Part shown: positions 1 to 159 of the stretch, piece by piece
How the letters are laid out: each line of letters opens with the position of its first letter
Numbering within the stretch: position 1 is the first letter of the stretch
Origin: Escherichia coli
GTDB lineage: Bacteria > Pseudomonadota > Gammaproteobacteria > Enterobacterales > Enterobacteriaceae
DNA: 64,000 bases
Assembly: GCF_003334815.1 (NCBI RefSeq)
Contig: NZ_QOWO01000022.1
Reading direction: 5' to 3' (one strand)
Position numbers and translations under genes: made by a program
The notes under the pieces: model-generated
Told to the model about the DNA's origin: nothing
Databases searched by the model: none
The model's input: the letters and a program-made list of their open reading frames with translations, nothing else

Positions 1-159
1 TGCCTCTGCCGTCTGCATAAGACTATGATGCACAAAAATAACAGGCTATAATGGCCTGAAAAACGGGACAGGATGTGGGAATGTCGGACCGCGCACGCGC
101 ACTCAGACATTCCCCACCTGGTCAGGGCTTTGCCCCGACACCCCGGTAAGGAGCAGACC
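1..159. other. Putative origin of transfer (oriT) nick region, truncated by window start
   Basis: Lies immediately 5' of nikA. The minus strand carries ATCCTG (revcomp of 69-74) inside cccacATCCTGtcccg, resembling the MobP-type nick consensus YATCCTG|Y. A GC-rich tract sits at 111-143. Assigned by position and motif only. Confidence 0.35.

What the first reader, a model, noticed from the sequence alone, without database searches (positions are those of the whole stretch)
1..159. Probable oriT nick motif at the extreme left edge
A MobP-type nick consensus (ATCCTG on the minus strand at 69-74, within cccacATCCTGtcccg) lies 90 nt upstream of nikA. The window probably truncates the full oriT with its repeats.
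Basis: partly seen in the sequence, partly recalled or inferred. Interest (0 to 1): 0.3.

Follow-up and report, generated by a model that had tools for sequence, protein, structure and literature searches.

The report
Complete I-complex plasmid transfer origin (oriT)
The left edge of the window holds the well-known R64-type origin of conjugative transfer of an IncB/O/K/Z plasmid; it lies whole inside the window, so the finding is correct in kind, ordinary, and already described.

Summary
The motif is real. ATCCTG lies on the minus strand at 69-74, inside CACATCCTGTCCC. The hexamer alone proves nothing, because it occurs 68 times in the window. Its context does.

- The 14 nt at 64-77 are invariant in 12 related oriTs and occur once in the window.
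- They sit 8 nt from an 18-bp imperfect inverted repeat (77-94/97-114). An invariant 8-bp repeat follows at 121-128/132-139.
- Next come nikA (160-492, ribbon-helix-helix accessory protein) and nikB (504-3215, MOBP relaxase).
- This is the R64 (IncI1) oriT layout.
- Bases 1-520 are 100% identical to pO26-CRL125, whose oriT was published in 2013.

Both oriT repeats lie between the nick and nikA, inside the window. Tiny oriT-only plasmids of 1.5-7.5 kb share only about 64-146.

The inferred nick is ACATCCTG|T on the minus strand, between window 69 and 68. Transfer would run leftwards into the leading region (ardA and neighbours), with nikAB entering last.

The large repeat co-varies with the NikA N-terminal domain, which fits a role as specificity determinant.

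One side observation: identity to R64 falls from 96-100% left of position 77 to about 53-80% right of it, so the nick region is a mosaic junction.

Novelty: already known. Interest: low.

The parts
64..77 (-). Nick region. The minus strand reads 5'-CACATCCTG|TCCCG-3'. The inferred nick lies between the complement of 69 (G) and the complement of 68 (T).
   Evidence: Invariant in all 12 aligned oriTs. Identical in R64. The 13-mer is unique in the window. Fits the MOBP consensus (C/T)ATCCTG(C/T) (PMC3772185). The nic position follows the IncI1-like nic written as ACATCTTG|T for pCTX-M3 (PMC8125031). The nick itself is inferred by homology and was not mapped here.
69..74 (-).
77..114 (.). Large imperfect inverted repeat IR1 (arms 77-94 and 97-114), counterpart of the R64 '17-bp' repeat. 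The nick-proximal arm (77-93) is the inferred NikA-binding 'repeat A'.
   Evidence: Arms of 18 nt, 83% complementary. It starts 8 nt from the inferred nick. The outer helix has compensatory changes in 5 of 7 pairs and 94% of cells paired across 12 oriTs; 0/500 shuffles reach the covariation score of the whole structure. Its sequence diverges between lineages (53-69% identity) while the flanks stay 91-100% identical. The 17-bp repeats form part of the recognised NikA binding site according to PMC3817090.
121..139 (.). Small inverted repeat IR2 (GTCAGGGC ttt GCCCCGAC), counterpart of the R64 '8-bp' repeat. It sits inside a conserved block at 114-146.
   Evidence: 7 of 8 pairs, almost invariant in 12 sequences. 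The block 114-146 is 91-97% identical across lineages. The 8-bp repeats are reported as identical to those of R64 in PMC3817090.
160..492 (+). nikA, the ribbon-helix-helix relaxosome accessory protein (110 aa).
   Evidence: NCBIfam MobA, 107 bits against a cutoff of 80. Matches the R64 NikA N-terminal structure 2BA3. 60% identical to R64 NikA. The N-terminal DNA-binding half is variable and the C-terminal half conserved.
504..3215 (+). nikB, the MOBP relaxase (903 aa).
   Evidence: NCBIfam TraI/MobA(P) relaxase, 402 bits against a cutoff of 250. Pfam Relaxase PF03432 over residues 84-203. 72% identical to R64 NikB, with Tyr22 and H158-x-D-x-D-x-x-H165-x-H167 conserved.
42..58 (+). CAGGC-TATAATG-GCCTG: a small inverted repeat that holds a TATAAT box (47-52). 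It is a candidate -10 element of a nikAB promoter reading across the nick. This is inference only.
   Evidence: TATAAT is conserved in 5 of 6 large plasmids, including the divergent Enterobacter and Citrobacter ones; pSCU116 has TATACT. No good -35 was found and the consensus scan did not call it. It is absent from the oriT-only plasmids.
1..4 (.). Last 4 bases of a conserved hairpin (GGCAGGGC-TGC-GCCCTGCC) that is cut by the left edge of the window. It is not part of the oriT core.
   Evidence: L001 5986-6004. One compensatory change is seen in the Enterobacter and Citrobacter plasmids (GGCAGTGC...GCACTGCC). It is not present in the small oriT-only plasmids.

Best explanation
Window 64-146 is the complete, functional-type origin of transfer of an I-complex (IncB/O/K/Z, MOBP/MPF_I) conjugative plasmid. 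It is built like the R64 oriT.

Inferred mechanism, by homology to R64:
1. NikA, a ribbon-helix-helix protein, binds the nick-proximal arm of the large inverted repeat (77-93).
2. NikA positions the relaxase NikB on the invariant nick region 8 nt away.
3. NikB cuts the minus strand at ACATCCTG|T (between 69 and 68) and stays bound to the 5' T through Tyr22.
4. The minus strand is led 5'->3' leftwards out of the window into the leading region (ardA and neighbours). nikAB, trb and tra enter last.
5. When the strand has gone round, the two inverted repeats, now single-stranded hairpins 5' of the nick, are used to recognise and reseal the site (termination).

Shown here: the anatomy, its conservation, covariation in the large repeat, protein family membership and synteny.

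Inferred: the exact nick, NikA binding, and the roles of the repeats in initiation and termination.
For: - Bases 1-520 are 100% identical to many IncK2/Z MOBP/MPF_I plasmids. These include pO26-CRL125, whose oriT was identified by comparison with R64 in PMC3817090 (85-bp oriT, identical to that of IncB plasmid p3521; 17-bp and 8-bp repeats).
- Alignment with R64 itself shows 64-77 identical, both repeats in the same places and nikA following.
- In 12 oriTs the nick region is invariant, the large repeat covaries and the small repeat is invariant.
- Plasmids of 1.5-7.5 kb that lack nikAB carry just about 60-145. An R64-like 93-bp oriT of this kind makes pEC156 mobilisable by R64drd11, and deleting the oriTs abolishes mobilisation (PMC4743918).
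- NikA and NikB are family members.
- The minus strand of 55-150 folds into the two hairpins, at -26.7 kcal/mol with z = -5.3. Homologues fold the same way.
- ArdA and, in R64, PsiB lie to the left, as expected for a leading region.
- In the related pCTX-M3, mutating the homologous nick region destroys oriT function (PMC7440800).
- nikB is essential for conjugation of an IncB/O/K/Z plasmid (PMC10286972).
- In R64, initiation needs the inner arm and termination needs the whole repeat (PMC5863519).
Against: - Nothing was measured on this sequence. The nick position, NikA binding and the minimal oriT are transferred from R64 and pCTX-M3 by homology.
- The large repeat is less perfect here (15 of 18 pairs) than in R64 (16 of 17).
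- The primary R64 papers (Furuya & Komano 1991, 1997, 2000) could not be read. The '8 bp from repeat A' rule and the 44-bp minimal oriT rest on my memory plus secondary sources.
- The invariant parts (nick region, small repeat) give no covariation, so their structure cannot be tested by comparison.
Confidence: 0.93

Rival explanations
1. The oriT is truncated. Essential repeats or binding sites lie left of position 1, so the window holds only the nick motif and an incomplete origin.
For: A conserved 8-bp-stem hairpin (GGCAGGGC-TGC-GCCCTGCC) straddles the window edge and shows one compensatory change in distant plasmids. Bases 1-63 are conserved among large I-complex plasmids.
Against: - Both repeats that define the R64-type oriT lie to the right of the nick, inside the window (PMC3817090).
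- Five independent small plasmids keep only about 64-146, with unrelated flanks on both sides.
- pEC156, with only a 93-bp R64-like oriT, is mobilised efficiently.
- In MOBP origins the recognition repeat lies 5' of the nick on the nicked strand, which here means to the right (PMC3772185).
Confidence: 0.04
2. The repeats at 77-139 act mainly as a transcriptional control element of nikAB, such as an operator for NikA autorepression or a 5'-UTR structure. On this view the ATCCTG is incidental.
For: - The element lies between a conserved TATAAT (47-52) and the nikA start, so it is probably transcribed.
- Ribbon-helix-helix accessory proteins often autoregulate; MobC of RA3 is an example (PMC4175270).
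- In pCTX-M3 the divergent orf35 (YggA homologue) represses nikAB (PMC6112013).
Against: - Small plasmids with no nikA or nikB retain the whole 64-146 block, including the invariant nick region. Regulation of nikAB cannot explain that.
- The nick region is the most conserved part, at 100%.
- A dual role is possible and would not conflict with the oriT reading.
Confidence: 0.02
3. The ATCCTG at 69-74 is a chance match, and NikB nicks somewhere else in the intergenic region.
For: The hexamer occurs 68 times and the 8-mer consensus 20 times in the window.
Against: - Invariance of the 14 nt at 64-77 across 12 oriTs while neighbouring sequence diverges.
- Identity with the R64 nick region.
- A fixed 8-nt spacing from the repeat in every homologue.
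- Loss of function when the homologous motif is mutated in pCTX-M3.
Confidence: 0.01

Closest known systems
oriT of pO26-CRL125 / pO111-CRL115 (IncZ) and of IncB plasmid p3521 (Venturini et al. 2013, PMC3817090)
   Same: The sequence is identical: window 1-520 matches pO26-CRL125 (NC_022996) at 100%. [quoted passage not shown]
   Different: No difference in the part compared (window 1-520). That oriT was also assigned by comparison with R64, not by experiment.
oriT of IncI1 plasmid R64 / ColIb-P9 (Furuya & Komano), the experimentally defined prototype
   Same: - Same order: nick region, 8 nt, large inverted repeat, small inverted repeat, nikA, nikB.
- Bases 1-77 are identical except position 57.
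- Block 114-146 is 91% identical.
- The leading region lies on the same side.
   Different: - The large repeat has a different sequence (58% identity), is less perfect and is 2 nt shorter overall.
- NikA is 60% and NikB 72% identical.
- Cross-specificity with R64 has not been tested.
oriT of IncP plasmid RP4 (TraJ/TraI), prototype of the MOBP nick region
   Same: An ATCCTG core within (C/T)ATCCTG(C/T), an inverted repeat just 5' of the nick on the nicked strand, and an N-terminal Tyr plus His-triad relaxase (PMC3772185).
   Different: No nucleotide homology beyond the nick core. RP4 has no second small repeat. The accessory proteins differ: NikA scores only 19 bits against TraJ, whose cutoff is 134.
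oriT of IncM plasmid pCTX-M3
   Same: [quoted passage not shown] Mutating its nick region abolishes function (PMC8125031, PMC7440800).
   Different: The core is ATCTTG rather than ATCCTG. NikA is about 30% identical to that of R64. Its oriT-nikAB module is fused to the tra operon (PMC6112013).

Membership tests
R64-type (I-complex, NikAB) oriT | A nick region matching the MOBP consensus (C/T)ATCCTG(C/T) and identical to the R64 nick region | tested here: met
   CATCCTGT at 68-75 on the minus strand. Positions 64-77 are identical to R64 and invariant in 12 homologues.
R64-type (I-complex, NikAB) oriT | A large ('17-bp') inverted repeat immediately 5' of the nick on the nicked strand, 8 nt away | tested here: met
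   Arms 77-94 and 97-114, 83% complementary. The same columns hold the R64 repeat. Covariation supports it. The 8-nt rule is from my memory of Furuya & Komano, but the spacing is identical to that in the R64 sequence.
R64-type (I-complex, NikAB) oriT | A second, small ('8-bp') inverted repeat between the large repeat and nikA | tested here: met
   121-128 and 132-139, 7 of 8 pairs. Nearly invariant in all homologues. Described in PMC3817090.
R64-type (I-complex, NikAB) oriT | Location immediately upstream of a nikA-nikB operon, with the leading region on the other side | tested here: met
   nikA at 160-492 and nikB at 504-3215. ArdA and neighbours lie upstream in an identical plasmid and in R64.
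R64-type (I-complex, NikAB) oriT | Site- and strand-specific nicking by NikB with NikA at G|T | not testable with these tools
   Needs relaxosome nick mapping. Inferred from homology only.
R64-type (I-complex, NikAB) oriT | The cloned fragment confers mobilisation in cis | not testable with these tools
   Indirect support only. Natural oriT-only plasmids carry about 64-146, and pEC156, with a homologous 93-bp oriT, is mobilised by R64drd11.
MOBP relaxase (NikB) | An N-terminal relaxase domain with the catalytic Tyr and the HxDxDxxHxH motif | tested here: met
   NCBIfam TraI_MobP_relax, 402 bits against a cutoff of 250. Pfam PF03432, E = 8.5e-30. Y22 and H158/D160/D162/H165/H167 are conserved with R64 NikB.
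NikA / MobA ribbon-helix-helix accessory protein | An N-terminal RHH DNA-binding domain homologous to R64 NikA(1-51) | tested here: met
   PDB 2BA3 match over residues 4-51, E = 3.6e-06. NCBIfam MobA, 107 bits against a cutoff of 80.

The most novel reading that the evidence does not exclude
The nick region is an evolutionary recombination junction. Against R64, the window's lineage is 96-100% identical for at least 1.4 kb to the left, up to position 77. From position 78 onwards (large repeat, nikA, nikB) identity is only about 53-80%. The same step is seen against a second IncK2/Z lineage. This could be the footprint of NikB-catalysed oriT-oriT site-specific recombination, or of exchange tied to the ends of conjugative transfer. 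Either process would shuffle leading regions against relaxosome/T4SS modules among I-complex plasmids, with repeat A and the NikA N-terminal domain travelling together as a specificity cassette. It has not been shown here that the break is caused by the relaxase. Ordinary homologous recombination, or different selective constraints on the two sides, could also produce it.
Probability: 0.3. Interest if true: 0.35.

Novelty: already known. Interest (0 to 1): 0.1.

Why it matters
It fixes the annotation of the window's left edge:
- the start of the transfer region;
- the transferred strand (minus);
- the direction of transfer (leftwards, so nikAB, trb and tra enter last).

It also shows that the origin can be used whole from this window. 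In practice, the 83-bp block at 64-146 is the piece that small hitch-hiking plasmids carry in order to exploit IncB/O/K/Z and IncI1 conjugation systems. The variable large repeat is probably what decides which helper plasmid can mobilise them. Nothing here changes current understanding.

Tried and rejected
- **Motif counting as evidence.** I counted the hexamer and the 8-mer consensus. Both are too frequent in the window (68 and 20 hits) to mean anything, so I dropped motif occurrence as evidence.
- **Primary R64 papers.** I tried to read PMC179678, PMC94506 and PMC207772. None is held, so I used secondary sources and the R64 sequence itself.
- **R64 accession.** AP005147 is not in the plasmid collection. 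NC_005014 is.
- **nikAB promoter.** The consensus scan gave nothing at the conserved TATAAT, and no acceptable -35 exists. The promoter is kept only as an inference.
- **Terminator-like call at 58-42 on the minus strand.** It is the same small repeat that holds TATAAT. No gene reads into it from the right on that strand, so I did not interpret it as a terminator.
- **Three-way junction in the single strand.** One predicted fold places the nick at the junction (CGGGG at 146-142 pairing with TCCCG at 68-64). It appears in 3 of 4 folds. It rests on 4-5 invariant pairs with no covariation, so I left it as a note.
- **A second oriT in the window.** None was found: no second match within 1 mismatch of the 13-mer.
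- **Rfam.** It has no hit in 1-200.

Full report
**1. Observation**

The + strand at 61-80 reads aaacgggacaggatgtggga. Positions 69-74 are CAGGAT, which is ATCCTG on the minus strand.

The gene to the right starts at ATG 160, behind AAGGAG at 148-153. The longer ORF that begins at 73 is not the annotated start. 'About 90 nt upstream of nikA' is therefore right.

The motif alone is worthless as evidence. ATCCTG occurs 68 times in the 64 kb against 39 expected. The MOBP consensus YATCCTGY (PMC3772185) occurs 20 times against 9 expected. The extended CACATCCTGTCCC occurs once, and nothing else comes within 1 mismatch of it.

**2. What the locus is**

Bases 1-520 are 100% identical to many E. coli, Shigella and Klebsiella plasmids typed IncK2/Z, MOBP and MPF_I. 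About 1,600 IncI1-type plasmids match at 80-90%.

The two genes are:
- **nikA** (160-492, 110 aa). NCBIfam MobA, 107 bits against a cutoff of 80. Its N-terminus matches the solved ribbon-helix-helix domain of R64 NikA, PDB 2BA3.
- **nikB** (504-3215, 903 aa). NCBIfam TraI/MobA(P) relaxase, 402 bits against a cutoff of 250, and Pfam PF03432. It is 72% identical to R64 NikB, with Tyr22 and H158-x-D-x-D-x-x-H-x-H conserved.

Downstream come trbCBA, the tra genes and the pil genes, which together form an I-complex transfer region. Upstream, outside the window, an identical plasmid has a divergent yggA-like gene, a DUF4942 gene and ardA. R64 has the same layout, with psiB and psiA further out. That side is the leading region.

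**3. Anatomy of 1-159**

Reading the + strand from left to right:

| Window | Feature |
|---|---|
| 1-4 | Tail of a hairpin cut by the window edge |
| 42-58 | Small repeat CAGGC-TATAATG-GCCTG |
| 64-77 | Nick region |
| 77-94 / 97-114 | Large imperfect inverted repeat, 18 nt arms, 83% complementary |
| 114-146 | Conserved block containing GTCAGGGC-ttt-GCCCCGAC (121-139) |
| 148-153 | Shine-Dalgarno sequence |
| 160 | nikA start |

Aligned with R64 (NC_005014), positions 1-77 are identical except position 57. The R64 '17-bp' repeat (GCAATTGTAATACCGTC / GACGCTATTACAATTGC) occupies the same columns as 77-114. The '8-bp' repeat is shared.

On the minus strand the order is: small repeat, large repeat, 8 nt (ACATCCTG), nick. 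This is the standard MOBP arrangement, with the recognition repeat 5' of the nick (PMC3772185). pCTX-M3 has the same layout, and its nic is written ACATCTTG|T and described as similar to that of the IncI1 plasmids (PMC8125031). I therefore place the nick between the complements of 69 (G) and 68 (T). This is homology, not measurement.

**4. Comparative evidence**

A distant blastn of 1-200 found 2,770 plasmid records. Large I-complex plasmids match from position 1. Plasmids of 1.5-7.5 kb, such as Col(MG828), match only about 60-145.

I fetched twelve examples and aligned them.
- The block GGGACAGGATGTG (65-77), together with C64, is invariant.
- The centre ACCG-CGCACGC of the large repeat is nearly invariant.
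- The block TGGTCAGGGCTTCGCCCCGACACCCC is nearly invariant.
- Homology in the small plasmids stops at 64 on the left and at about 146 on the right, with unrelated flanks beyond.
- The outer part of the large repeat differs between lineages but stays self-complementary. Five of 7 pairs show changes on both sides and 94% of cells are paired. For the whole structure, 0 of 500 shuffles reach the observed covariation score, and versions slid by 1-3 columns collapse to 26-40% paired.

By segment, identity of the window to three other lineages is as follows:

| Window | Segment | Identity |
|---|---|---|
| 64-77 | Nick region | 100% |
| 78-113 | Large repeat | 53-69% |
| 114-146 | Small-repeat block | 91-97% |
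| 160-492 | nikA | 60-73% |

The NikA proteins of the same plasmids are nearly invariant in their C-terminal halves. They are variable in the N-terminal RHH domain, including the beta-strand (IVKFTARF, NVLIAVRF and TVVRTLRF). This parallels the variation in the large repeat. It agrees with the remark in PMC3817090 that the 17-bp repeats differ because they form part of the recognised NikA binding site.

One Shigella 1.5-kb plasmid carries the window's version of the large repeat exactly. It has the repeat that I infer gives specificity for this lineage's relaxosome.

**5. Mechanism**

The mechanism is set out under 'best explanation'. Here is the support for each step.
- **Sufficiency of a block of about 90 bp.** pEC156, with a 93-bp R64-like oriT, is mobilised by R64drd11 at 0.24-0.52 relative efficiency, against 0.0007 without its oriTs (PMC4743918).
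- **Need for the nick core.** Mutating ACATCTTGT kills the pCTX-M3 oriT (PMC7440800).
- **Need for nikB in this plasmid group.** A nikB::Cm mutant of the IncB/O/K/Z plasmid pMS7163B cannot conjugate (PMC10286972).
- **Roles of the repeat arms.** In R64 the inner arm is needed for initiation and the whole repeat for termination (PMC5863519, citing Furuya & Komano 2000).
- **Hairpin formation.** As single-stranded DNA, the minus strand of 55-150 folds into both hairpins at -26.7 kcal/mol, z = -5.3, with 0 of 200 shuffles as stable. R64, pSCU116 and a small plasmid fold alike.
- **Direction.** The relaxase stays on the 5' end, so the strand leaves leftwards towards ardA. This matches the definition of a leading region (PMC8125031).

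**6.

The claim is not supported. Everything that defines the R64-type oriT lies at 64-146.

What the window does cut is a different conserved hairpin, GGCAGGGC-TGC-GCCCTGCC, at window -14..4. It shows one compensatory change in the Enterobacter and Citrobacter plasmids. It lies near the start of the divergent yggA-like gene and is absent from the oriT-only plasmids. I regard it as something other than oriT, possibly promoter- or operator-related. In pCTX-M3 the yggA homologue orf35 represses nikAB (PMC6112013).

**7. Comparison with what is known, and novelty**

This exact sequence is the oriT of pO26-CRL125 (NC_022996). Venturini et al. 2013 described it (PMC3817090) as an 85-bp oriT identical to that of IncB plasmid p3521, with both repeat sets. 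It passes every sequence-level membership test for the R64-type oriT. The two functional tests, nicking and mobilisation, cannot be done here. The verdict is 'already known'.

**8. Side observation**

Against R64, identity is 96-100% in every 100-nt window for 1.4 kb to the left, up to position 77. From position 78 onwards it is 53-80%. The same step appears against pSCU116 and pSL476_91.

The nick region is thus a mosaic junction between a shared leading region and diverged relaxosome and transfer modules. NikB is reported to catalyse oriT-oriT recombination (Furuya & Komano 2003, as cited in PMC5714925). An oriT-linked recombination hot spot is known in IncA/C plasmids (PMC5587640, title). 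A causal link is not shown here.

**9. Limits**

- No experiment was done on this sequence.
- The primary R64 papers were not readable.
- The assignment of NikB to subclade MOBP12, the 44-bp minimal oriT and the position of RP4 TraI Tyr22 are from my memory.

Noticed in passing
window 1-77 versus 78-3215 (compared with R64 locus L016 and with L012 and L002): There is a sharp mosaic boundary at the nick region. Identity to R64 is 96-100% for at least 1.4 kb to the left, up to position 77. From 78 rightwards (large repeat, nikA, nikB) it is 53-80%. The same step is seen against another IncK2/Z lineage. It may be a footprint of recombination at oriT.
   Followed up: partly
window 1-4, continuing outside the window (L001 5986-6004): A conserved hairpin, GGCAGGGC-TGC-GCCCTGCC, is cut by the left edge of the window. 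It shows one compensatory change in the Enterobacter and Citrobacter plasmids (GGCAGTGC...GCACTGCC). It lies upstream of the divergent yggA-like gene. Its function is unknown and it is absent from oriT-only plasmids.
   Followed up: partly
window 42-58: The small inverted repeat CAGGC-TATAATG-GCCTG holds a TATAAT box that is conserved in 5 of 6 large plasmids, including the divergent ones. It is a candidate nikAB -10 element, which would mean the operon is transcribed across the nick site. No convincing -35 was found.
   Followed up: partly
window 55-150, minus strand: The predicted single-strand fold places the nick G|T at a three-way junction. CGGGG (146-142) pairs with TCCCG (68-64), and CCAGGTG (120-114) pairs with part of CACATCCTG. 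All partners are invariant, so covariation cannot test this.
   Followed up: partly
L005 (Shigella flexneri 1,538-bp Col(MG828) plasmid) 388-473, and similar 1.5-2.5 kb plasmids (L006, L008, L009): These tiny plasmids have no mob genes and carry only the block of about 85 bp. One of them has the window's version of the large repeat exactly, which suggests it is tuned to IncB/O/K/Z helper plasmids.
   Followed up: partly
window 3283-3714 (+): A 143-aa ORF with a lipoprotein-like N-terminal motif (VAGC, read by eye from the translation; not tested) lies just downstream of nikB. It resembles the C-terminal domain of TolA (NCBIfam E = 2e-14, below the cutoff). No gene is annotated at this position in R64 (nikB is followed directly by trbC); not searched for elsewhere in R64.
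   Followed up: partly
window 11357-15520 (-): An intact 1,387-aa ORF has an autotransporter beta-barrel domain (TIGR01414, 251 bits). It is probably the novel SPATE-type protease reported for pO26-CRL125-like plasmids (PMC3817090). It is not listed in the PLSDB gene table of the ECOR 3 plasmid.
   Followed up: partly
window 17820-19376 (+): A 518-aa phosphoethanolamine-transferase-like protein sits in the plasmid backbone. It is closest to CptA and EptA but far below all curated cutoffs, and only remotely similar to the MCR families. It is therefore not an MCR colistin-resistance gene by these scores.
   Followed up: partly
window 20334-21920 (-): A 528-aa protein combines a stretch resembling sigma-70 region 4 (residues about 132-200) with a TnsA-like endonuclease domain (residues 332-440). 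This is an unusual fusion sitting between the hok/sok locus and excA.
   Followed up: no
window 19890-20046 (+) and 9352-9441 (-): Rfam hits: the sok antitoxin RNA (124 bits), next to a Hok/Gef gene, and the AgrB antisense RNA (49 bits), next to a DinQ-like type I toxin gene (dqlB). These are two type I toxin-antitoxin loci within the transfer region.
   Followed up: no
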